A stretch of DNA of 40,085 bases from a virus (IMGVR_UViG_3300015177_000009:1-40085), one strand, 5' to 3'. Positions 10,621 to 30,347 are shown, counted from the first letter of the stretch. The notes: a model not told the origin generated them from the letters alone. A program made the numbers and translations.

Positions 10621-11920
10621 CCAGGCGGGCTATGCGTATCTTACAATCATCTAGGTGGATGCGTAGCGCTTCTAAACATGGAGTAAAGTTAGCTGAGAAT
10701 TTGTCGGACTCACAGGCCAATGCATAAAATTTTTCAGCCAATTCAAGAGATTCATCCCATATTTTTCGACTTACAAAGTCTGGTAGTGCTGTTTTTCTAA
10801 GCTCATTAGATATTGCTCCCCCAGAGCGTGGAGCAAAACCCATAGGTAACATGTCATAGGCTGGAGCAATATGATATGGGCGTCCGTGGCTACTAATAAA
10901 CGATAGGTTACCATTATGCATATCGGTATTGCCTATTAGCAAACCAAAAGACCATAGCCTTGTTGCTATAATAATCGCATCAGGATGGACGCACTTATTT
11001 TTTACCAACTCTTTAACCAGCAAGGGCCATGTTGCTCTTGCATTCCCAACAAATTCTGCATCAAGTGCACGAAGTGAGAATACACCTACCCGACCTAGTT
11101 GACCAACACGATCAAATCGGGGAATTTCCAAGAATCTCTGACCGTTATAATCAAAAACTTCTGTTTCTACCCCCAGAACTTTTAATGCGAGATGTTCAGC
11201 AAACAAGAGATCTCTCCAACGCTCACTTATAGGGGTGTCGTTAGGCGCAGAGAATTTCACTAATACATGTCCACGCTCTGTGAAAGTACAAAATTTGGGT
11301 TGTTCACCTCCAGCAGATGAACCGGGCACATCACCTTCACCAGCAGCTAAAGCTAATACAGGATATTCACTTTCACGATTAACAGGAACAGGAGGCTGCA
11401 TCTCTAAAAAATGCGTGCGTGCTTGCTCTCCAATTAACAAATTACCAACAACATCATGCCCATGCTTAAGTAAGGCTTTGATCACGTCAGTATCTGACCA
11501 TTGCTCTGGATTTGAGGGAAGGTTAAGTTCAAGAGCATATGCTGATGCATATGCTCTTCCAAGGAAGCCTTGTGGACGCATATCAAATAACCACCAAGGT
11601 AACCCATCGCTATGCCTGTTATTTTTCCCTTCCTCAACCATAACATAGCCTTCTGGCCTCACCGGAATGAGAGTACCAAGAACGCAAATACACCCCTCTT
11701 CAGTTATACGATAAATGGGGACTGATTCGAATCCTCTAAAAGAGTCTCGTAAAGCATATTGAATAGATCTTCCATTTCCGATCCTAACGATTTCATCACC
11801 AAGATCTCTTAATGCTCTAGATATCGTTGGTTGGCTAACACCTAGTCTTTCAACCAATTGTCTTGGTGTCATAGGACCTTGATTGAGCAAATTACGGATT
11901 GTTGTTGCATGTATAGCCAT
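10616..11920 (-). CDS. HipA-family Ser/Thr kinase with fused N-terminal HTH (YjjJ/HipH-like)
   Basis: N-terminal HTH (TPRQLVERLGVSQPTISRALRDLG); HipA-like motifs GEQPKF, IGNTDMHNGNLSF and APAYDM; likely start at MAIHATT (11920), listed ORF extends to 11980; GC about 42 percent, below backbone. Confidence 0.8.
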   Translation of the reverse strand: MAIHATTIRNLLNQGPMTPRQLVERLGVSQPTISRALRDLGDEIVRIGNGRSIQYALRDSFRGFESVPIYRITEEGCICVLGTLIPVRPEGYVMVEEGKNNRHSDGLPWWLFDMRPQGFLGRAYASAYALELNLPSNPEQWSDTDVIKALLKHGHDVVGNLLIGEQARTHFLEMQPPVPVNRESEYPVLALAAGEGDVPGSSAGGEQPKFCTFTERGHVLVKFSAPNDTPISERWRDLLFAEHLALKVLGVETEVFDYNGQRFLEIPRFDRVGQLGRVGVFSLRALDAEFVGNARATWPLLVKELVKNKCVHPDAIIIATRLWSFGLLIGNTDMHNGNLSFISSHGRPYHIAPAYDMLPMGFAPRSGGAISNELRKTALPDFVSRKIWDESLELAEKFYALACESDKFSANFTPCLEALRIHLDDCKIRIARLA

Positions 11921-20400: not shown

Positions 20401-23400
20401 TGCTTTATGACTTCGTTGCCGCCGGGCGCGTAGCCAGCGCAATGGACTCCGACTCCCACCGCAAAGAGGCCGCGCGTCGCCGGGTATTGTCGGAGTATTC
20501 AGATACCGGCACCGAAAAAGCAGAGAAGTATCCGTACTTTGAGGATATGGGCTTCGATAGTGTGATCGCTGACGAAGGCCACAACTACCGCAATAGCTAT
20601 AAAAATGGTCGCGAAGCGTCACAGCTGGCCTATCTGCCCACCAGCGCGGTAGCGCAATCGGCGCGGGATATGGCAATCAAAAACGCGTACCTGATGAAAA
20701 AGAATGGCGGGCGCGGACCGGTTCTCCTGACTGCAACGCCAGTCGTTAACACCCCGATCGATGCATACAACATGCTTTCTCATGTTCTGCCGAAGGAATA
20801 CTGGCAGAAGATGGGGATCTACGGTCCTGATGACTTCGTTAAATTCTTCGGCAAGACCAGGCTGGAAACGGTACAGAAAATCAGCGGTGAAGTTGAAGAA
20901 AAAATGGCGCTGGTGGGCTTTGAAAACCTTGATGCGCTGCGCGGTATATTCCATCGCTGGGTAACGCTTAAAACGGCGGAAGACGTTAAGGATACCGTGG
21001 AGATCCCGGAACTGGACGAGCACCAGCAGGATGCACCACTTACGGAAGAACAACTGGCGGCGTATGAAGAATTACGTCAGCAGGCGGAAGCGGCGGCCAA
21101 AGCCAACAATGGCGTAACGACCTCGGTCAATGAAGACGGCGTGATTGAGCACGAGAAGGCCCGTCCGATCTTCTCAATAATCAGGGATATGGACCGCGTA
21201 TGTACTGACATGGACCTGTACTATCGCCGGATCACCTATCGTTTCCTGCCGGAGTACGCCGATGCGGTGCAGCAGCTGGCGGACAGTTTGCCTAAACAAG
21301 CCACCAGCGAAGACGACGACAGTGATGATTCAATCACGCAGCAATCGCAATACTCCCTGATAGATAAGGGCGAGTTTATTCAGTTGCAGGTTCCGGAAGC
21401 GTTCGAGCAGGAAGTGAATAAGCGCCTGGCCAGGTTTGGCATTGACGAACAGACCGTAACTCACCCCGTTACACCCAAATACGCGAAGCTGATCGCCACG
21501 CTGAAGGAGTTTTTCCCGGAAGGTAAGCAAATCATCTTCACGGACGAAAAAACGCAGCACCAGAAGCTCAAGCGCATTATCTGCAATGCTCTTAACCTTG
21601 AACCTTCAAAGGTGGGGATCCTGAATGCTCAGACGGTTGCCGAGGCAGGTAAAACCGGTAAGAAACTGAAAGCGGTTAAACCGCCGAAAGAGTTACCGGA
21701 TGAACCAACAGATGCACAGATAGCGAAATACAACGAGCAAATGGCTCTGTATGACGCCTATATCGCGCAGCAAAATGAAATGTCGTTGGGCGGTCTGGAA
21801 AAGATTGCAGCAGACTTCCAGGAGGGCCGGACTCCGATCATCATCTGCAACAAAAAGGCAGAGGTGGGTATCAACCTGCATCGAGGAACGACTGACATCC
21901 ATCATCTGACGTTGCCATGGACACCAGCCAGTATCGCACAGCGTAACGGTCGCGGTGCCCGAGTTGGCTCCAACCGTGCAAGCGTTCGCGTTCATTACTA
22001 CTGCGGCAAGGGTTCTTTCGATGAATACCGACTGAAGACGCTGAAGCGTAAAGCAGGCTGGATCTCCGATATCCTCCGTTCAGATAAGTCAGAAATGGAG
22101 AACGCCGACGCCAACGATATGATCGAAATGCAGATGTATACCGCTAAGGATGATGGCGAACGTCTGGCAATGATGCAGGTTCAAATGGATAAGGCGAAAG
22201 CCGCGCAACGCGCTCGCCAGAAAGAACAGGCTACTATCGACCTTCAGAACTACATCAAGGCGCAGCACGCAGCTGGCGAGGATGTGGAGGTACTTACCGC
22301 TGAATTAGAGCGAAACAAAGCGGAACTTGAAAAGACCACCGCCGAGGTAGCTAAATTCAAACAGGCGGTAATGGCCAAAGCAGCTGATAACGCAGACTGG
22401 AAAGCCCGCTGGGGTAGCGTCCATCACACAGACCGTACGTTGTTAGCACAGTATCGCGCGTCGTTGAAAAGCGCCATTCAGCGCAAGGCTAATATCTCTC
22501 AGGCCATCTCCCGCTATGAGAAATTATTGAACCGTACTCAGAAGGCCGCGACGGATATCAAACGCCTGCGCCCGCTGGTGGAGGATGCAATAAATAAAGG
22601 CATTCTGGATGTTGATCCTGATCTGGTTAACCATGCGAATGAGTTCCTTGTTATCGGCGATCGCTCATGGCGTGTAGGCCAATACTACGATTGTGCCGGT
22701 GATATCGTTCGCATTAAGTCGCTGGACTTCGACAGCCAGCGCGCAGACGTGGAGATCATCTTTACCTTCAAAGGCACCAAATCGGGTAACTGGGATGTGA
22801 AGACGCTGGATAAACAGGTTGATGTAACTCCCGATGAAGATGCTGTTATGCAGAAAATCAGTGGCGGCGTCTCCATCGCCGGGATTAACGACATCATTTC
22901 CTGTGACGATTTCTACCGTTTCCAGCAGCGCGGCATGATCAAAATCACTGACTCATACGGCGTTCAGACTACAGAGTCAGGCTATAGCATTGATTTTGTT
23001 GGTACCTATACGGACCCACTGAAGCATGCGGTTTACCCGGATCGCCGTGACGGCGCGCTGAAGTCGTCAATTGCAAAATGGGTGCTTGGTATGATGTCGG
23101 AAGGGAATAACCGCCAGATCCGTTCGGCAGAAACATTCCTGGTTGAATTGTTTGGCTCCAATTATGGCGATGTAATCGCGTCATACGGAGATACGCTATC
23201 CCCTGAAGCAATTCAGGAGAAAATAGCGGATGCGATCGCCAGAATGCCGGAAAAAACAAGCCAGGGGGCTACTCGTAACGGGGATTCTGAACTTGAGGTC
23301 ACCAATGCTATTTTCGGTACCCATGAGTTCCGGGCGTCAGATTATGAGATCACCACAGCACAGTTTGGCACCATTGGCATTTACAGCAATAAAGCCGAGA

Positions 23401-24185
23401 TCAAGCAGGCAATGGACGCAGCAAGCGCGCGCATCGCAGCAGAACGGGAAGCCAATCTGAATCATGCAGTCGCCGCGCTGACTCAATCGTGGGTAACAGC
23501 AATCAGGGAGGCCGCCACCACAGGGAAAATCACACCTGCAATAGCGGATGTCGTAAACGACGGCTCTAAATTTATGGATGCCTATCAAATGGATGCGGTG
23601 AAGTTGCCATCAGCCTATGGTCAACTCAGCTATCGCATGACCTACAACCTGGTATCAATGTTTTCCGACCTTACCATCCTTGGGCTGGTGGATCTTAACG
23701 AGGTTACGCCGGAATTGCTCAGCATGCGCAAGAATCATGTGGAGATATTGCAGAGAATTAACACGGTTCTTGCCGGGCGCACCGATGAAGAGAAACAGGC
23801 CGACGCTGATCGGATAAACCTGGCCCTTGGCAACATCACGGAGGAAGAGATTGCCGCCAGAAACGAGAAACAAGAAGAGTTATCATCAATACAGGGTGAT
23901 GCCACCAGCATAGCTCAGTCTCTTGGTCTGAATTATCGCGTATCCACCGCCGACCTGAAGATGATGTACGCACCAAAATTCGCCGCTGGCGAGGTATTTG
24001 GGCTTCAGGAAGCCTCAGGCATGAAAGGCGTTCTTTTCCGTGCGAAAGACGCAATCAAGGCGAAATTCGGCGCTCGCTGGCTGCCAGCGAAGGCGAAGAA
24101 CAGCGATTTCCCGGGTAACTGGTGGATTATCGAGACAAAACACAACGTGGCGGACGTTCTGGCCGTCATCCAACAATACGCATAA
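17418..24185 (+). CDS. darB: DarB antirestriction protein (methyltransferase plus helicase domains)
   Basis: 2255-aa ORF; Walker A GFGTGLGKTT and DEAH-like VIADEGHNY; AAGGA ribosome-binding site; size matches P1 DarB. Confidence 0.9.
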   Translation: MIKLSMGVFRCSSVSEILKYISAITSHRAPIRYGVEKVEGKSYDRLRREANQKAIDLLNSLVDGATLTDEQRQILAGYTGEGGIGGSVSEYYTPKPIAEGVWEIMKLYGADVGNTLEPSAGTGVFNETKPVGTVMTATEISCVSGRINQLLHPEDSVQISPFEQLAISTPNDSFDHVVGNVPFGGRDNTRNIDKPYAEETDMGSYFMLRMLDKIKPGGFMCVIVPPSIVSGSNMKRLRLRLSRKAEFLGAHRLPTGTFDANGTSTVVDVVLMRKHPAEMAEKIPLVDEGTLESANVLWPTFISGKWFEKDGRRFVHGTQEKGFQGRIEVRADGQIDNQALKAKLIHRFESRIDWSLLDMAEPSPTADVVGEGEMRLINGVWQKYAGGRWIEADAGKELKIDAASYGADSWEALQRNLTTTEGRLGMTFTQMANVRDKYTTSISDDMVQLVDWINSQPEKYRERLYRGAMIGRMLIEYQDMKAAGHSAEQIEQQRLSLVSRLQAEIDRFGNPGRGPIAKLSGSGARAWFAFRGAIKLDGTISDELTGKLVTHDSSASYDSTSYQDTLRYLYSDLTRDPIQLDDFRLAFTGELPASDEELLNLLASTPGIAVSPYGGIVPFARATSGDINEIVAPKQKFLATLPDGPVKNNVLNQLAAIEEKRIKTPAENIRFKLNSRWFDRSVILEFLQENGYPDLRYVQSVQLEGDEMVSDTYHGGDGLFVGHRYGVVQRKDKETGEIRYEWDRKSGENATGFPAQLEKYLNGARIGGKDSATANGYREQMALLEDQFNKWIKTHDRYDELVAKYNDVFNSNIPYEHSGDPLGLKGLSGKRQPFDYQNSEVRRLSEDGRGILGFGTGLGKTTTALALEAFNYENGRSTRTAYVVPKSVLENWYYEAKEFLSEEAFSNYLFVGLDVLMDGDQIRQVPVLDENGKPVLGTDGTPVMRDALKLADEATITARMNAIPHSNYRAVVFTKEQYARIPLRDDTVDEHAQDMLYDFVAAGRVASAMDSDSHRKEAARRRVLSEYSDTGTEKAEKYPYFEDMGFDSVIADEGHNYRNSYKNGREASQLAYLPTSAVAQSARDMAIKNAYLMKKNGGRGPVLLTATPVVNTPIDAYNMLSHVLPKEYWQKMGIYGPDDFVKFFGKTRLETVQKISGEVEEKMALVGFENLDALRGIFHRWVTLKTAEDVKDTVEIPELDEHQQDAPLTEEQLAAYEELRQQAEAAAKANNGVTTSVNEDGVIEHEKARPIFSIIRDMDRVCTDMDLYYRRITYRFLPEYADAVQQLADSLPKQATSEDDDSDDSITQQSQYSLIDKGEFIQLQVPEAFEQEVNKRLARFGIDEQTVTHPVTPKYAKLIATLKEFFPEGKQIIFTDEKTQHQKLKRIICNALNLEPSKVGILNAQTVAEAGKTGKKLKAVKPPKELPDEPTDAQIAKYNEQMALYDAYIAQQNEMSLGGLEKIAADFQEGRTPIIICNKKAEVGINLHRGTTDIHHLTLPWTPASIAQRNGRGARVGSNRASVRVHYYCGKGSFDEYRLKTLKRKAGWISDILRSDKSEMENADANDMIEMQMYTAKDDGERLAMMQVQMDKAKAAQRARQKEQATIDLQNYIKAQHAAGEDVEVLTAELERNKAELEKTTAEVAKFKQAVMAKAADNADWKARWGSVHHTDRTLLAQYRASLKSAIQRKANISQAISRYEKLLNRTQKAATDIKRLRPLVEDAINKGILDVDPDLVNHANEFLVIGDRSWRVGQYYDCAGDIVRIKSLDFDSQRADVEIIFTFKGTKSGNWDVKTLDKQVDVTPDEDAVMQKISGGVSIAGINDIISCDDFYRFQQRGMIKITDSYGVQTTESGYSIDFVGTYTDPLKHAVYPDRRDGALKSSIAKWVLGMMSEGNNRQIRSAETFLVELFGSNYGDVIASYGDTLSPEAIQEKIADAIARMPEKTSQGATRNGDSELEVTNAIFGTHEFRASDYEITTAQFGTIGIYSNKAEIKQAMDAASARIAAEREANLNHAVAALTQSWVTAIREAATTGKITPAIADVVNDGSKFMDAYQMDAVKLPSAYGQLSYRMTYNLVSMFSDLTILGLVDLNEVTPELLSMRKNHVEILQRINTVLAGRTDEEKQADADRINLALGNITEEEIAARNEKQEELSSIQGDATSIAQSLGLNYRVSTADLKMMYAPKFAAGEVFGLQEASGMKGVLFRAKDAIKAKFGARWLPAKAKNSDFPGNWWIIETKHNVADVLAVIQQYA

Positions 24186-24218
24186 CAGGAGCGCCCGGTT
24201 CGCCGGGCGTCGCATAAT

Positions 24219-24659
24219 ATGGCCACACTATCTGATACAATAAAACCGAATAAAACATATCTTGAGGCGGTACTCCGTACAGCGTTGTTAGGAAAGACAG
24301 AAGACGAATACGTTGATTTCTTCCTGTCAGGGCTACGCGGGCGATTACTGAAAAATCCCCGCCTGTACCGCAGCTATGGTCCATACTGGCCGGAAATTAA
24401 AAAATTATTACTGGAGCGCGGTTATGGTAATTTCGGTCGTCTCGTTGACCGTGACGTTCGCAAAATTTACCGTTACGACCGCCCGGCGCTGACGCTCATA
24501 GCTGCGACGCTCTACAGCCAGGAGCGTTTTGATAATGGTCAGATATACTCAGCCTGGCATTTACTGCCAGTGCCTGAAGAGGTTGACGACCAGGACTATG
24601 AGTTTGAGTCTTACGATTTGGAAGTTGAAGCCTTGGCACAGGCTGGAGAGAAAACTTGA
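24219..24659 (+). CDS. ulx: Ulx-like protein (needed for DarB packaging in P1)
   Basis: 146-aa ORF directly after darB; position as in P1. Confidence 0.55.
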   Translation: MATLSDTIKPNKTYLEAVLRTALLGKTEDEYVDFFLSGLRGRLLKNPRLYRSYGPYWPEIKKLLLERGYGNFGRLVDRDVRKIYRYDRPALTLIAATLYSQERFDNGQIYSAWHLLPVPEEVDDQDYEFESYDLEVEALAQAGEKT

Positions 24660-24904
24660 AAAAGCGATACTACACAGTAAAGCATGGGACGCTACGAGCA
24701 TTACAAGAGTTTGCTGATAAGCATAACGTTGAAGTGCGCAGGGAAGGGGGAAGTAAAGCTCTGCGCATGTACCGTCCGGACGGGAAATGGCGTACGGTCG
24801 TCGATTTCAAAACAAACAGTGTTCCCCAGGGCGTCCGCGACCGGGCATTCGAAGAATGGGAGCAGATCATCATAGATAACGCATTGCTCCTGAATGCAGA
24901 TTGA
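24656..24904 (+). CDS. lxc: Lxc-like small regulator
   Basis: 82-aa ORF overlapping the ulx stop by 4 nt; position as in P1. Confidence 0.5.
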   Translation: MKKRYYTVKHGTLRALQEFADKHNVEVRREGGSKALRMYRPDGKWRTVVDFKTNSVPQGVRDRAFEEWEQIIIDNALLLNAD

Positions 24905-24940
24905 CAATTTTGCCCGGAATTACCGGGCAAAATTAAGCAA

Positions 24941-26077
24941 CTATCCTTCGTTACGAAGATGCTTATCTAAGAATTTTGTAAACTGGTTTGTTGAGCCAAA
25001 ATAGTTGGGGTAGGCTTTTTTTAGTGACTTAATGTTATCTGTAGCAACGAGAACAGATATCAATACATTAGGATCAGAATCGTCTTTATTTAAGGCCTCA
25101 AGGGCTTCATCTGCTTCTTTTGTTTTAAATGCGCGAACAGACACTAGGAACATTTTTTTGTTTTTTGTATTGGGCTTGTTTTCTGCATTTCTCATTGTTA
25201 CTAAGTAATGCCCCTTATGATTTTTTGGCAACTTCTTAATCAAATTCGCGTCAGAAGTTAAATTTAAGGCGAGGGTGTATGTGCTTAGTTTCCTCCGTAC
25301 AGATAAAGTCCGTTCCAGCTCTTTAAGCTCGCCTTCATACTGAGATACAACCAGCTCATCAAGAGTGCAGGCTTTTTCGTCGTGCGCTACAAGACATCCG
25401 GCTAGATAGAAAAATCGTCTCCATTCTGGATGCCCTTCACTTGAAGTTTTCAGCTTGATACCTTCAAGGGTATCAATTATTTCAAGGCTAGTAGCCCAAG
25501 CATGCTGCAATTGAGTTCTTAACTGTATCTCAATCTTTGTTTTTCGCCACGGATATTGCTCCTCTTTCTGATCGAAGCAACTGTATGCAAGGTGGATTCC
25601 ACTATAGCCGCTGTCTTTGGGAGTAAGATAATCATACTCTTTAACAATCCTATGAACAGATTTGCTTTTTAAAAGACGTTCCTTTAGCTGTATCAACTGG
25701 TCTAAGTTTCTGACAATGGCCCTACATCCGCCAACGTCCTGCATCCGTGTTAATTTAATTGCATTGCTAGTTCTGCCTCCATCAAGACTAGGACGCTCTA
25801 GTTTATCTATTATGGTAGAAAGTCGCTTAAGTCTTCTTGCAACGAGAATCTTTTTGTCTTTGTCAACCTTAGCAGCTGCTCTTGCTAAATGATTTTTCAT
25901 GAGCATTAATGGATAAAGATGCAGCTCACGGAAATTTTGTATCATTTCAATAGCTTGCTGCCTTTCTTCGTCACTACACCCGTGCCTTATCAATTGAGCA
26001 GCCCTATCAATTTGAGATTTTGAATATTTCAACTTGCATTTTTGACTTTGATAAACTTCATTCCCCATTGCTTTCAT
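24941..26077 (-). CDS. Fused toxin-antitoxin with RelA/SpoT-homologue (toxSAS) domain, CapRel-like
   Basis: Synthetase-fold motifs GGRTSNAIKL…DVGGCRAIV and YSGIHLAYS…EIQLRTQLQHAWA; about 120-aa C-terminal extension; GC about 35 percent; occupies the P1 res/mod locus. Confidence 0.7.
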   Translation of the reverse strand: MKAMGNEVYQSQKCKLKYSKSQIDRAAQLIRHGCSDEERQQAIEMIQNFRELHLYPLMLMKNHLARAAAKVDKDKKILVARRLKRLSTIIDKLERPSLDGGRTSNAIKLTRMQDVGGCRAIVRNLDQLIQLKERLLKSKSVHRIVKEYDYLTPKDSGYSGIHLAYSCFDQKEEQYPWRKTKIEIQLRTQLQHAWATSLEIIDTLEGIKLKTSSEGHPEWRRFFYLAGCLVAHDEKACTLDELVVSQYEGELKELERTLSVRRKLSTYTLALNLTSDANLIKKLPKNHKGHYLVTMRNAENKPNTKNKKMFLVSVRAFKTKEADEALEALNKDDSDPNVLISVLVATDNIKSLKKAYPNYFGSTNQFTKFLDKHLRNEG

Positions 26078-26170
26078 CCATTTTAAATGATTTACATGCT
26101 GTTACATCTAATGATAAAGCGGTTAGAAAATCAATGGAGAATATAACCACAAAATTACTGTATATAATTG

Positions 26171-26812
26171 TTAAAAATAATTATGTTTGCCTGTTAATAC
26201 CCCTTTCGGCACTTTTTTTTGTTCCAGTATCTGGGTGCCCAGAATTATGTTAATCAGTGGACTTAGTAACGATGGTTCTTGGCGGGCCTCAACTTCTCCA
26301 GCCATTGCCCTGATGTAGTCGCCGCTGGCAACGTTGTTGTATTCCGTCGCAAAGCAACATAGTAACGTCAGAACATGCTCTGTCGTTATTTCGCTCCAGT
26401 TGATGTTGAAAAATTCATCGCCTTTTTTATCGTGTTCGGAATCGAAGATGCTTTGGTGGAGAATGTATTTGCCGGATTCCTTGCGCGGTAACTTGATCGC
26501 TTTCTGGCGTTCCAGCTCCTTGTAAATCTGCATTGCTTCAATCAGTACCGGCCTGCCGTTCATGAAGGGATCGCGCAACCTTACACGCTGGCCAACTCGA
26601 CCAGTAATAAAGCTGTTTTCCTCTTCCACCAGCACGATAAAACCCTTTTCCTCTTTTTCTCGCAATTCGCGCAGCAGCTGGAGTTCCATGTCGCGGCGGC
26701 GTTCAGAGTAGCTGGTCCGCTCAGCCATTATCAGCTCGTTGTTGATCCATGCAGCAGTCATTGACGCCGGTTTGCCGACGCTCATCGAAACAACGCATAT
26801 TTTCTTATCCAT
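26171..26812 (-). CDS. Hypothetical protein (possibly the backbone mat-position gene)
   Basis: 213-aa ORF; GC about 48-52 percent, unlike the AT-rich genes on either side; no motif recognised. Confidence 0.5.
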   Translation of the reverse strand: MDKKICVVSMSVGKPASMTAAWINNELIMAERTSYSERRRDMELQLLRELREKEEKGFIVLVEEENSFITGRVGQRVRLRDPFMNGRPVLIEAMQIYKELERQKAIKLPRKESGKYILHQSIFDSEHDKKGDEFFNINWSEITTEHVLTLLCCFATEYNNVASGDYIRAMAGEVEARQEPSLLSPLINIILGTQILEQKKVPKGVLTGKHNYF

Positions 26813-26822
26813 AGCGCCCCCT

Positions 26823-26853
26823 ACAAAAAAAGAAAAGCCACCAGTGGCGGCTT
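26823..26853 (-). terminator. Intrinsic terminator after the zinc-ribbon/DUF4145 gene
   Basis: On the minus strand: GCCGCC-ACT-GGTGGC hairpin (one G-U pair) followed by TTTTCTTTTTTT; the T-tract ends about 10 nt before the next start codon. Confidence 0.5.
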
Positions 26854-26970
26854 AGCAATACAGCTGAAGGTAGCGCCCGGTACTCAGACTGTGCCGTCCA
26901 TGGAATATTTGAAAAGGGATCCATCCGTACCGGGCGTGTGATGATTCTGACTGAAGTCACTTGTCAGTTG

Positions 26971-27720
26971 TCAACATTTTTGTTTTTGAGGATTAAATTT
27001 TTTGTCTAGATTATGAGCTAACTCACTAACCTTTTTGCGATTATCCGAATATAAATCACTTAGAATAAAATTCATTATCTCGTATGAGTTATCCAAGTCA
27101 TCTGCGGTAACTTTTTCATAGCGGTGGCTACCCGCATTTCCAAGAAACTTAATCGCAAATAACAGGCTTTTAAAGCCAGAATGTTCACTAGGGATCATCT
27201 CAATTCTATTATGGAGGTTAATTCTATTCCCATTTTCGCTTGTTTCAGTTACCCCGATAGCAGTAAGTAACCGTTCTACAGATGTTCTTATTAGATTTGC
27301 AGCGGCACCTGGATGAATTGTGCTTAGTGCAAACGAGGTGTTTATAGGCAAGGCTATGTCTTCAGGGCACATGTTCGGGATAAGAAATAGCTTTAACGCA
27401 GGAGTAAAACTTAATGGTTCATACCAGCGATAGTAACTAAGCCCTTTATGTTCGCACCAATCTTGTTCTAGACCACTTCTGCCGATACATGCCACTACCT
27501 CCTTACATTGAGGTCTTACGCACTGTGACATACAACTGAATACCGAGCTTGTATACTCTAAGTCAAACCATTCTTCACCCTCCATTTTGACAGTTTCAGC
27601 TGTATCCTTACAGATGAAAGATTCATCTAAAATTTTTAAAGTTGTTTGCCCACAATTAGGACATGGCCATTCAACCATTTTGTTGTCCCAAAATTTTTTG
27701 GGGATTTTGTGTATTGTCAT
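26971..27720 (-). CDS. Cys-rich zinc-ribbon-like N-terminus fused to DUF4145/HEPN-like C-terminal domain; candidate defence protein
   Basis: N-terminal Cys cluster (CPNCG, then C-x3-C-x4-C-x5-C); C-terminal IRTSVERLL…FLGNAGSHRYEKVTADDLDNSYEIMNFILSDLY resembles the DUF4145 signature (R..GN.aaH) as I recall it; GC about 32 percent; has its own terminator. Confidence 0.6.
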   Translation of the reverse strand: MTIHKIPKKFWDNKMVEWPCPNCGQTTLKILDESFICKDTAETVKMEGEEWFDLEYTSSVFSCMSQCVRPQCKEVVACIGRSGLEQDWCEHKGLSYYRWYEPLSFTPALKLFLIPNMCPEDIALPINTSFALSTIHPGAAANLIRTSVERLLTAIGVTETSENGNRINLHNRIEMIPSEHSGFKSLLFAIKFLGNAGSHRYEKVTADDLDNSYEIMNFILSDLYSDNRKKVSELAHNLDKKFNPQKQKC

Positions 27721-27806
27721 ATTTGGCTTATGCCCCGTATATGAAGAACTAATCTCGATAATAACAGAGAAGTTCTGTTTTAATAAAAACCAAAATAATA
27801 AATATA

Positions 27807-28257
27807 TTAGAATAATAAGTTTGCCATCTCATAGGCGTCAGCCAACAGCTCCATCTCTGACTTGTTCCGCAGGGTGAATTCTTTCTTGCCTCCAACCACA
27901 CCATCGGCATGAACAGGGACCAACCAGGGGTATTTTGCTCTTACTTCAGCCGGTGCTGCATGCTGGTGGTGCCATCTACAAAGTGGCAATTGCTTTTTAT
28001 GACAACCCGGCGCGGTACGACCGGAGATATGGTGCAGAGACACCTCTTCAGATATTACTCCATGCATGTAGCAGGCAATGCAGGGGAGAGCGCCAAGAGC
28101 ATTGGCGATGCTCCGTTCCTCCGCCGTCGGTGTTCGCCCCTTCAAGCCACGAGATTTTATCTTTACCGCACTTTTCCCGTTGCCGAGCGATCGCTCGTTC
28201 TCTGGCTGCCTTCTGCCACTCGCGGCGCTGTTCAAGTTTTTGTTCGATTGTTTTCAT
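27807..28257 (-). CDS. ref: Ref-like HNH endonuclease, N-terminus and HNH domain in different frames
   Basis: The ATG at 28257, downstream of a C1 operator, opens MKTIEQKLEQRREWQKAARERAIARQREK…; the HNH domain (CIACYMHGV…HHISGRTAPGCHKKQLPLCRWHHQ) is in the adjacent frame (listed ORF 27807..28235). Confidence 0.55.
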
Positions 28258-28355
28258 ATGGCAAAAAAAAGGCGGCCTAATGGCCGCCAATGATGTCAAG
28301 GAGTTAAGTAATGGCAACGTCTTCGTAGTTGACAAAAACTGCGGCTTAATTATAT

Positions 28356-28372
28356 CAATCAATTAGAGCAAT
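28356..28372 (-). promoter_or_regulatory. C1 repressor operator upstream of ref
   Basis: CAATCAATTAGAGCAAT; 11-bp core ATTAGAGCAAT intact, about 14 of 17 overall. Confidence 0.65.
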
Positions 28373-28478
28373 GATAGGTATTTTGTTTATCGCGAATCAT
28401 ATTTTTTCACGTCAGTACCTGTGTGCTATACTCCTTCTTGATTGATTGGATGCGGAATACAAACCCGCTCTTTTGTGC

Positions 28479-28508
28479 AGCCTGGCTCCTTGCCAGGCTT
28501 TTTTATTT
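28479..28508 (+). terminator. Intrinsic terminator oriented on the + strand
   Basis: Perfect 8-bp stem AGCCTGGC / GCCAGGCT with loop TCCTT, followed by TTTTTTATTT; overlaps the stop codon of the minus-strand cra-like gene. Confidence 0.5.
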
Positions 28509-30313: not shown

Positions 30314-30347
30314 ATAACTTCGTATAATGTATGCTATACGAAGTTAT
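30314..30347 (+). other. loxP site
   Basis: Exact ATAACTTCGTATA-ATGTATGC-TATACGAAGTTAT. Confidence 0.97.

What the first reader, a model, noticed from the sequence alone, without database searches (positions are those of the whole stretch)
24905..26170. P1 res/mod locus occupied by a CapRel-like fused toxSAS toxin-antitoxin gene
Where P1 carries its type III restriction-modification genes (between lxc and the mat/ref side), this element has a single AT-rich gene (about 35 percent GC). Its N-terminal two-thirds carry RelA/SpoT synthetase-fold motifs (GGRTSNAIKL, DVGGCRAIV, YSGIHLAYS, EIQLRTQLQHAWA) and it has a roughly 120-aa C-terminal extension. That architecture matches fused toxSAS systems of the CapRel type, which as I recall were described from a Salmonella P1-like prophage and sense phage capsid protein. 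A perfect 12-bp palindrome (AATTTTGCCCGG / CCGGGCAAAATT, 24906-24934) separates it from the convergent lxc.
Basis: partly seen in the sequence, partly recalled or inferred. Interest (0 to 1): 0.6.

Follow-up and report, generated by a model that had tools for sequence, protein, structure and literature searches.

The report
CapRel anti-phage gene in P1-like plasmid
This P1-like phage-plasmid carries, in place of P1's restriction-modification genes, an intact but untested variant of CapRel, a known single-protein toxin-antitoxin that stops translation when it detects an invading phage protein; the kind is well known, so the finding is correct but ordinary.

Summary
Window 24941-26077 (- strand) is an intact ORF of 378 aa, or 375 aa from the second ATG at 26068. 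It has a RelA/SpoT domain and is 75% identical over its full length to CapRel-SJ46 (PDB 7ZTB, 9ERV), the founding fused toxSAS toxin-antitoxin of Salmonella phage SJ46. In SJ46 that gene sits in the same slot: mat, then capRel, then convergent lxc.

All 12 residues shown experimentally to matter in CapRel-SJ46 are conserved: ATP-coordinating R79 and R116, G-loop Y155, the YXXY autoinhibition motif, the interface residues, and L280 and L307. An AlphaFold model superposes on 9ERV (TM 0.95). The cassette (24903-26169) exactly replaces P1 res/mod.

The sensor domain is the most divergent part (62% identity; 45% around the β6-β7 loop), so the phage trigger cannot be inferred. Synonymous sites between the two alleles are saturated while the flanks are 98-100% identical, which indicates cassette exchange of old alleles.

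This allele occurs in 83 of 5426 complete E. coli genomes, against 14 for the SJ46 allele. It is annotated only as "RelA/SpoT domain-containing protein". CapRel in E. coli P1-like phage-plasmids is already reported. The 12-bp palindrome is real and non-random but is not a canonical terminator.

Verdict: a new member of a known kind, of low interest.

The parts
24941..26077 (-). capRel-type gene encoding a fused toxSAS toxin-antitoxin. It is 378 aa from the ATG at 26077, or 375 aa from the ATG at 26068 (the RefSeq start, WP_032313380.1). The stop codon is 24941-24943.
   Evidence: ORF. 75% identity to CapRel-SJ46. PDB 7ZTB E=5e-186. PADLOC PDC-S33 4e-86. PHROG 4773 1e-147. RefSeq annotation.
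25253..26068 (-). Toxin part, residues 1-272 in SJ46 numbering: the toxSYNTH pyrophosphokinase domain plus linker/anchor helices. The Pfam RelA_SpoT match covers 25490-25834. R79, R116 and G-loop Y155 are conserved.
   Evidence: The 1-272 boundary is taken from the toxic fragment used in PMC9712102. Identity to SJ46 is 77.6% over this part.
24944..25252 (-). Antitoxin/sensor part, residues 273-375: the end of anchor helix α9, a cysteine-free pseudo-zinc-finger domain (three β-strands and one helix) and the C-terminal anchor helices.
   Evidence: AlphaFold secondary structure is E286-294, E307-315, H316-330, E335-342, H343-352 and H356-371. There are no Cys residues here. Identity to SJ46 is 65% over this part, and 45% for residues 301-320.
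25001..25012 (-). YPNY, the YXXY neutralisation motif (SJ46 Y352/Y355). In CapRel-SJ46 it inserts between R79 and R116 to block the ATP site.
   Evidence: The first Y is invariant and the second nearly invariant in 56 homologues. The role of the motif is from PMC9712102.
24906..24934 (.). Perfect 12-bp inverted repeat with a 5-nt loop, between the stop codons of lxc and capRel. It is a stable hairpin on either transcript and probably acts as a 3'-end or insulator hairpin.
   Evidence: RNA fold -18.4 kcal/mol (+ strand) and -21.8 kcal/mol (- strand), z about -4.2. Chance expectation 0.01 per window. The scan does not call it terminator-like. The empty slot of RCS47 has a hairpin with the same stem core, TTTTGCCCGG/CCGGGCA.
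26078..26170 (-). Intergenic region of 93 bp between the mat stop codon and the capRel start codon. It is the presumed capRel promoter and leader.
   Evidence: About 90 nt next to the start codon align with the SJ46 upstream region. That region drove native expression in PMC9712102. No C1 operator match lies here. No strong sigma-70 consensus was found.
24656..24904 (+). lxc (bof), the conserved left flank. P1 homology ends at 24902.
26171..26812 (-). mat (maturation control), the conserved right flank, co-directional with capRel. P1 homology resumes at 26170.

Best explanation
The gene encodes a CapRel-family fused toxSAS toxin-antitoxin. This is a one-protein abortive-infection defence that the P1-like prophage-plasmid carries in its variable lxc-mat cargo slot. 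The mechanism is inferred by homology. In uninfected lysogens the C-terminal pseudo-zinc-finger domain folds back on the N-terminal pyrophosphokinase domain, and the YPNY motif plugs the ATP site between R79 and R116. When a superinfecting phage makes a particular protein, that protein binds the pseudo-ZFD and anchor helices and holds the enzyme open. The open enzyme then pyrophosphorylates the 3' ends of tRNAs, which blocks translation and phage production. What is shown here: the fold, the domain order, every tested catalytic and autoinhibitory residue, the genomic position, and wide conservation of an intact gene. What is inferred: the enzymatic activity, the defence phenotype and the trigger. 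I rate a major capsid protein of SECphi27/Bas8-like siphophages as the single most likely trigger, at about 0.35, because both tested relatives of similar divergence (SJ46 and EcHT) sense it. A different trigger is at least as likely overall.
For: Pfam RelA_SpoT matches above threshold. Identity to CapRel-SJ46 is 75% over 371 aa, with E=5e-186 to PDB 7ZTB. All 12 residues with experimental phenotypes in SJ46 are identical: A77, R79, R116, Y155, L280, L307, V338, L339, A341, A351, Y352 and Y355 (phenotypes in PMC9712102). R79, R116, Y155 and the first Y of YXXY are invariant in 56 homologues, whereas residues about 232-345 are hypervariable. The AlphaFold model (pLDDT 82.6, pTM 0.80) has the β-β-α-β pseudo-ZFD topology and superposes on 9ERV_A (TM 0.95, rmsd 1.9 Å) and on 7ZTB (TM 0.90-0.92). 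The gene occupies the same slot in SJ46. It is intact and at least 99% identical in 83 complete E. coli genomes. Between alleles pN is 0.17 and pS 0.85, which indicates strong purifying selection on the protein. The cassette has no C1 operator, consistent with expression in the lysogen. The SJ46 residues needed for Gp54 and capsid sensing are mostly retained: L270, D273, N275, L276, K278, L280, L307 and K316 are identical, with S279K and R314K the exceptions (PMC11578894).
Against: Nothing here measures activity, toxicity or defence for this allele. The sensor is the most divergent part: 62% identity over residues 273-340, 45% over 301-320, and a 1-residue insertion in the β6-β7 loop that contacts the capsid protein in the SJ46 model. 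CapRel-Ebc is 70% identical to SJ46 overall yet senses T7 Gp0.4 together with host FtsZ (PMC13423816), so similar divergence can change the trigger completely. No clear sigma-70 promoter was found upstream.
Confidence: 0.9

Rival explanations
1. It is a toxSAS that kills by making (pp)pApp and depleting ATP, as FaRel and Tas1 do, rather than by pyrophosphorylating tRNA. The fused autoinhibition would still apply.
For: toxSAS enzymes with the same fold use either chemistry (PMC9712102 introduction; PMC11782079 abstract). The sequence alone does not fix the acceptor substrate.
Against: The protein is 75% identical to CapRel-SJ46, for which tRNA pyrophosphorylation and translation arrest were shown (abstract). 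The toxin domain is the best-conserved part, at 79.5% over residues 1-200.
Confidence: 0.04
2. It is an ordinary small alarmone synthetase (RelP/RelQ/YjbM-like) that makes (p)ppGpp for the host's or prophage's physiology, not a defence toxin.
For: RefSeq and GenBank name it 'RelA/SpoT domain-containing protein' or 'GTP pyrophosphokinase'. There are weak hits to SAS structures.
Against: The NCBIfam YjbM equivalog scores 35.8 bits against a cut-off of 320. Identity to SAS structures is only about 20-25%, with query-normalised TM about 0.35 and alignments that cover only the catalytic core. The protein has the CapRel-specific C-terminal pseudo-ZFD and YXXY motif.
Confidence: 0.02
3. It is a plasmid-addiction (post-segregational killing) module, or a decaying relic, rather than an active anti-phage sensor.
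For: It sits on a low-copy plasmid prophage, and toxin-antitoxin genes often stabilise plasmids. Some copies are disrupted: there are IS insertions in several plasmids, and the phage record vB_EcoM-673R5 has it split into two CDS.
Against: With toxin and antitoxin in one polypeptide, the differential-stability mechanism of addiction is not available (inference). The ORF is intact and at least 99% identical in 83 genomes. Non-synonymous change is strongly constrained. The closest relatives were shown to defend against phages.
Confidence: 0.03

Closest known systems
CapRel-SJ46 (Salmonella phage SJ46 J46_0058, AMR59976.1; PDB 7ZTB, 9ERV; Zhang et al. Nature 2022 and 2024)
   Same: The architecture is the same: single ORF, toxSYNTH domain, anchors, pseudo-ZFD and YXXY motif. 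Length is nearly the same (375 vs 373 aa). All experimentally tested residues are the same. It occupies the same lxc-mat slot of a P1-like phage-plasmid, in the same orientation. The roughly 90-nt leader is conserved..
   Different: Identity is 75% at the amino-acid level and only 68.7% at the nucleotide level, with saturated synonymous sites. The sensor domain is 62% identical, with a 1-aa insertion and many charge changes in the β6-β7 loop and in β7. The hairpin after lxc is different. This allele is about six times more frequent in complete E. coli genomes, 83 against 14. Its trigger and phage spectrum are untested.
CapRel-EcHT (E. coli HT2012018; Zhang et al. 2022, Extended Data Fig. 6h)
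   Same: It is a fused CapRel from E. coli. Its C-terminal 113 aa are 64% identical to this protein, sharing LIKKLPKN, KEADEALEAL and ATDNIKSLKKAYPNY. It defends against Bas8, and the escape mutations lie in the capsid protein.
   Different: It is not the same allele. Its upstream region is different, and so presumably is its genomic context. The comparison rests on a machine-read primer table that contains errors, so only the C-terminal part is reliable.
CapRel-Ebc (Enterobacter chengduensis)
   Same: Same family and architecture, with a comparable overall distance from SJ46 (70%).
   Different: It senses T7 Gp0.4 in a ternary complex with host FtsZ, not a capsid protein (PMC13423816). This shows that this degree of divergence can mean a different trigger. 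I did not align it directly.
EcoP1I type III restriction-modification (P1 res/mod)
   Same: It occupies the same lxc-mat slot in phage P1 and also serves to exclude other phages.
   Different: The proteins and mechanism are unrelated. It is about 5 kb plus an IS5 element, against 1.27 kb here. It is transcribed in the opposite direction, co-directional with lxc. It is absent from this window.

Membership tests
CapRel subfamily of fused toxSAS toxin-antitoxins | N-terminal RelA/SpoT-type pyrophosphokinase (toxSYNTH) domain | tested here: met
   Pfam PF04607 E=2.8e-12, 47.4 bits against a cut-off of 27, aa 82-196. The fold matches 7ZTB and 9ERV.
CapRel subfamily of fused toxSAS toxin-antitoxins | Catalytic and substrate residues: ATP-stacking R79 and R116, and G-loop Y155 | tested here: met
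   All three are identical in the pairwise alignment and invariant in 56 homologues.
CapRel subfamily of fused toxSAS toxin-antitoxins | Toxin and antitoxin in one ORF, with a C-terminal cysteine-free pseudo-zinc-finger domain (three-stranded sheet plus helix) flanked by anchor helices | tested here: met
   Single ORF. AlphaFold gives E286-294, E307-315, H316-330 and E335-342, followed by helices. There are no Cys residues in this region. Full-length superposition on 9ERV gives TM 0.95.
CapRel subfamily of fused toxSAS toxin-antitoxins | YXXY neutralisation motif and autoinhibitory interface residues (A77, V338, L339, A341, A351) | tested here: met
   YPNY is at aa 356-359, and all the interface residues are identical.
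CapRel subfamily of fused toxSAS toxin-antitoxins | Close sequence relationship to characterised members | tested here: met
   75% identity to CapRel-SJ46 over 99% of its length. PADLOC PDC-S33 E=4e-86.
CapRel subfamily of fused toxSAS toxin-antitoxins | The N-terminal fragment is toxic and is neutralised in trans by the C-terminal fragment | not testable with these tools
   Needs expression of residues 1-272 and 273-375 in E. coli.
CapRel subfamily of fused toxSAS toxin-antitoxins | Pyrophosphorylates tRNA 3' ends and blocks translation when activated | not testable with these tools
   Biochemical assay required.
CapRel subfamily of fused toxSAS toxin-antitoxins | Confers phage defence through direct binding of a phage-encoded trigger to the C-terminal domain | not testable with these tools
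   Needs plaque assays and escape mutants. No multimer structure prediction was available.
Housekeeping small alarmone synthetases (YjbM/RelQ, YwaC/RelP) | Scores above the NCBIfam equivalog cut-off and has a stand-alone synthetase of about 200-230 aa | tested here: not met
   NF053588 scores 35.8 bits against a cut-off of 320. The protein is 375 aa and has an extra sensor domain.
Type III restriction-modification (the P1 cargo at this slot) | res and mod genes between lxc and mat | tested here: not met
   P1 3470-9751 has no counterpart. Window 24903-26169 holds only the capRel cassette.

The most novel reading that the evidence does not exclude
This allele is the commonest CapRel of E. coli P1-like phage-plasmids. 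It may recognise a trigger, or protect against a set of phages, different from those of CapRel-SJ46. For example it could sense another structural protein or a phage-host protein complex, as CapRel-Ebc does. It would then be a natural third or fourth specificity on an otherwise near-identical scaffold, useful for mapping how the pseudo-ZFD is retargeted.
Probability: 0.45. Interest if true: 0.35.

Novelty: new member of a known kind. Interest (0 to 1): 0.2.

Why it matters
It does not change any concept. CapRel, its mechanism and its presence on P1-like phage-plasmids are all published. Its practical value is narrow. This uncharacterised allele is about six times more frequent in complete E. 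coli genomes than the studied SJ46 allele, and it differs mainly in the sensor domain. It is therefore a ready-made natural variant for asking how trigger specificity evolves. It also matters to anyone predicting phage susceptibility of clinical E. coli that carry P1-like plasmids. Finally, the locus illustrates the lxc-mat slot of P1-like elements as an exchangeable cargo position. Across relatives that slot holds type III RM, CapRel alleles, a PIN protein, an AraC plus EAL gene pair, or nothing.

Tried and rejected
1. I tested whether the window protein is the already characterised CapRel-EcHT. It is not. From the primer table of PMC9712102, the C-terminal 113 aa are only 64% identical. I did not reconstruct the Ebc and Kp sequences.

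2. I tested whether the palindrome is a canonical intrinsic terminator. The scan does not call it one. The U-run lies 5' of the GC core and an A-run lies 3' of it on both strands. I keep it as a stable 3' hairpin of uncertain termination efficiency.

3. I attempted dN/dS by domain to look for diversifying selection in the sensor. Synonymous sites are saturated (pS 0.77-1.0), so no ratio can be given, only pN.

4. I looked for a C1 operator in the cassette that would tie expression to the P1 immunity circuit. There is none within 24905-26170.

5. An Rfam scan of 24000-28500 gave only a sub-threshold suhB/mmgR hit at 28256-28322 (22.4 bits against a threshold of 41), taken as chance.

6. A promoter search upstream of capRel gave only weak sigma-70 matches.

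7. A literature search for the RefSeq accession WP_032313380 found nothing.

Full report
**1. What is in the sequence**

Between lxc (24656-24904, +) and mat (26171-26812, -) lies one ORF on the - strand, 24941..26077, of 378 aa. A second in-frame ATG at 26068 gives 375 aa. That is the start used by RefSeq (WP_032313380.1) and by the database cluster P0001. It also aligns with residue 1 of the crystallised SJ46 protein. SJ46 has the same upstream in-frame ATG, so the start is ambiguous by three codons.

The region 24905-26170 is 38.2% GC, against 48.4% for the whole window, and the composition profile shows the dip. The 12-bp perfect inverted repeat is at 24906-24917 and 24923-24934.

**2. Context**

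The window is a P1-like phage-plasmid:
- darB, ulx, lxc, mat, ref, c8 and cre are in P1 order.
- loxP is at 30314-30347.
- C1 operators match the consensus ten times, against 0.2 expected.

P1 (NC_005856) aligns with window 22000-24902 and again from 26170. So window 24903-26169 replaces P1 3470-9751, which holds res, mod and the IS5 element. Over 24600-26900 the window is 100% identical to E. coli plasmid NZ_CP102949.1.

**3. Identity of the protein**

Family and similarity searches agree:
- Pfam RelA_SpoT matches aa 82-196 (E=2.8e-12, above threshold).
- PADLOC PDC-S33 gives 4e-86 and PHROG 4773 gives 1e-147.
- A tblastn search against phage records finds a 74% identical protein over 99% of the length in Salmonella phage SJ46, annotated 'RelA/SpoT family protein', J46_0058. 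BLASTP gives 277/371 identities.
- The same sequence is PDB 7ZTB, 'Salmonella tRNA pyrophosphokinase CapRel', and 9ERV, 'CapRel bound to Bas11 Gp54'.

In SJ46 the gene sits in the same place and orientation: mat, then capRel, then convergent lxc.

**4. Test of the defining features**

Zhang et al. 2022 identified these functional residues:
- R79 and R116 for ATP stacking.
- G-loop Y155; the Y155A mutant abolishes defence.
- The YXXY motif (Y352, Y355) and interface residues A77, V338, L339, A341 and A351; substitutions here make the protein constitutively toxic.
- L280 and L307, which are needed for capsid-protein binding.

All 12 are identical in the window protein. In an alignment of 56 homologues of 52-78% identity, R79, R116, Y155 and the first Y of YXXY are invariant. 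The stretch of about 232-345 has no consensus, which matches the published statement that the antitoxin domain is the least conserved part.

An AlphaFold model built on that alignment has pLDDT 82.6 and pTM 0.80. Its C-terminal arrangement is strand, strand, helix, strand, followed by two helices. This is the pseudo-ZFD topology described. The region contains no cysteine. Foldseek places 9ERV_A (TM 0.95, rmsd 1.9 Å) and 7ZTB (TM 0.90-0.92) far ahead of the small alarmone synthetases, which score about 0.35 when normalised by query length. The NCBIfam equivalog for the housekeeping synthetase YjbM scores 35.8 bits against a cut-off of 320.

**5. Where it differs from CapRel-SJ46**

| Region (SJ46 numbering) | Identity to SJ46 |
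|---|---|
| 1-200 | 79.5% |
| 201-272 | 72% |
| 273-340 (pseudo-ZFD) | 62% |
| 301-320 | 45% |

There is also a one-residue insertion in the β6-β7 loop. In the SJ46 model that loop contacts the capsid A-domain.

Of the α9, β6 and β7 residues implicated in Gp54 and capsid sensing, L270, D273, N275, L276, K278, L280, L307 and K316 are retained, while S279 becomes K and R314 becomes K (PMC11578894).

The C-terminal 113 aa are 64% identical to CapRel-EcHT, an allele that also senses the Bas8 capsid protein. So this is a third allele, roughly equidistant from the two capsid-sensing ones. CapRel-Ebc, at 70% overall identity to SJ46, senses T7 Gp0.4 together with FtsZ instead. The trigger therefore cannot be read from the sequence.

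**6. Evolution and distribution**

The two capRel alleles are only 68.7% identical at the nucleotide level. Synonymous differences are saturated (pS 0.85) and non-synonymous differences are constrained (pN 0.17). Yet lxc is 98-100% identical, and mat returns to 92-100% from about 26259. These are old alleles exchanged by recombination in the conserved flanks, not divergence in place.

The slot is variable among P1-like phages:

| Phage | Cargo in the lxc-mat slot |
|---|---|
| P1 | EcoP1 res/mod |
| RCS47 | none (39 bp) |
| JL22 | PIN-domain protein (PADLOC candidate PDC-S34) |
| vB_EcoM-Ro157c2YLVW | AraC-type regulator plus an EAL-domain protein |
| SJ46, 673R5 and this window | CapRel |

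Among 5426 complete E. coli genomes:
- 699 carry the P1-type ulx-lxc flank.
- 83 carry this cassette at 99% identity or more.
- 14 carry the SJ46 allele.

The 90%-identity protein cluster has 313 member sequences, against 122 for the SJ46 cluster. A 2025 preprint already lists CapRel among the commonest defence systems of E. coli P1-like phage-plasmids (10.1101/2025.09.12.675607). I found no paper that names this accession.

**7. The hairpin and expression signals**

The palindrome folds at -18.4 kcal/mol on the + strand and -21.8 kcal/mol on the - strand (z about -4.2), and it is far beyond chance. It is not followed by a U-run on either strand, and the terminator scan does not call it.

The empty slot of RCS47 has a hairpin with the same stem core, TTTTGCCCGG...CCGGGCA, followed there by TCTTT. 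The window hairpin therefore looks like the resident lxc/mat 3' hairpin of the backbone, kept at the left edge of the cassette. SJ46 has a different perfect 12-bp palindrome at the same place. I read it as a 3'-end-stabilising or insulating hairpin between convergent transcripts. Its efficiency as a terminator is untested.

The 93-bp region upstream of capRel shares about 90 nt with the SJ46 leader, which was sufficient for native expression in E. coli. It has no C1 operator. That fits expression in the lysogen, but this is an inference.

**8. Verdict**

The gene is an intact, widespread and individually uncharacterised allele of a well-characterised defence protein, located at the same locus as the founding member. 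The mechanism is assigned by strong homology, with confidence 0.9. The trigger is unknown. In novelty terms this is a new member of a known kind, of low interest.

Noticed in passing
window 26980-27791 (ORF 26971..27720, - strand): This is a second AT-rich insert of 812 bp between ref and mat. It is absent from P1, RCS47, JL22 and 673R5. It encodes a 249-aa protein with N-terminal Cys clusters that look like a zinc ribbon, plus DUF4145 (Pfam 1.6e-11). It matches PHROG 1305 'DNA binding protein' at 4.8e-46 and gives a weak PADLOC PD-T7-4 hit (0.0047). It is 50% identical to a Salmonella phage SEN8 protein. It may be a second cargo or defence gene.
   Followed up: partly
window 27800-27816: A C1-operator-like site (3 mismatches) corresponds to P1 Omat. 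The DUF4145 insert lies between it and the P1 Pmat-equivalent sequence. The operator now sits just upstream of the DUF4145 gene, about 0.8 kb from mat, which may alter C1 control of mat.
   Followed up: no
L004-L006 (RCS47, Ro157c2YLVW, JL22), lxc-mat interval: The same slot holds unrelated cargo in other P1-like phages. RCS47 has nothing. JL22 has a 316-aa PIN-domain protein that hits PADLOC candidate PDC-S34. Ro157c2YLVW has an AraC-family regulator plus an EAL-domain protein.
   Followed up: partly
L002 6010-7109 (Escherichia phage vB_EcoM-673R5): The same capRel allele (97% identity) is annotated as two CDS and matched in three pieces. darB in that record is also fragmented, which suggests sequencing or assembly frameshifts rather than real decay.
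   Followed up: no
plasmids NZ_AP024520.1, CP069704.1, NZ_CP070916.1, NZ_CP050045.1: IS elements (ISKpn26, ISVsa5, IS3, IS1A) are inserted within or next to this capRel cassette in several E. coli plasmids.
   Followed up: no
window 11531-11558: Another perfect 12-bp inverted repeat, AAGAGCATATGC with a 4-nt loop. It is one of only three in the window, and I did not examine it.
   Followed up: no
window 27807-28367 (ref): The ORF lister gives Ref as 142 aa (27807..28235), but RefSeq annotates a 186-aa Ref family protein ending at the same stop codon. About 100 bp of P1 (2164-2262) have no counterpart near the 5' part of ref. I did not resolve the discrepancy.
   Followed up: no
window 24219-24904 vs NZ_CP102949.1: The ulx-lxc segment is 99.3% identical to the plasmid, whereas 24600-26900 is 100% identical to it. 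So the window is a close relative of that record rather than that record itself.
   Followed up: no
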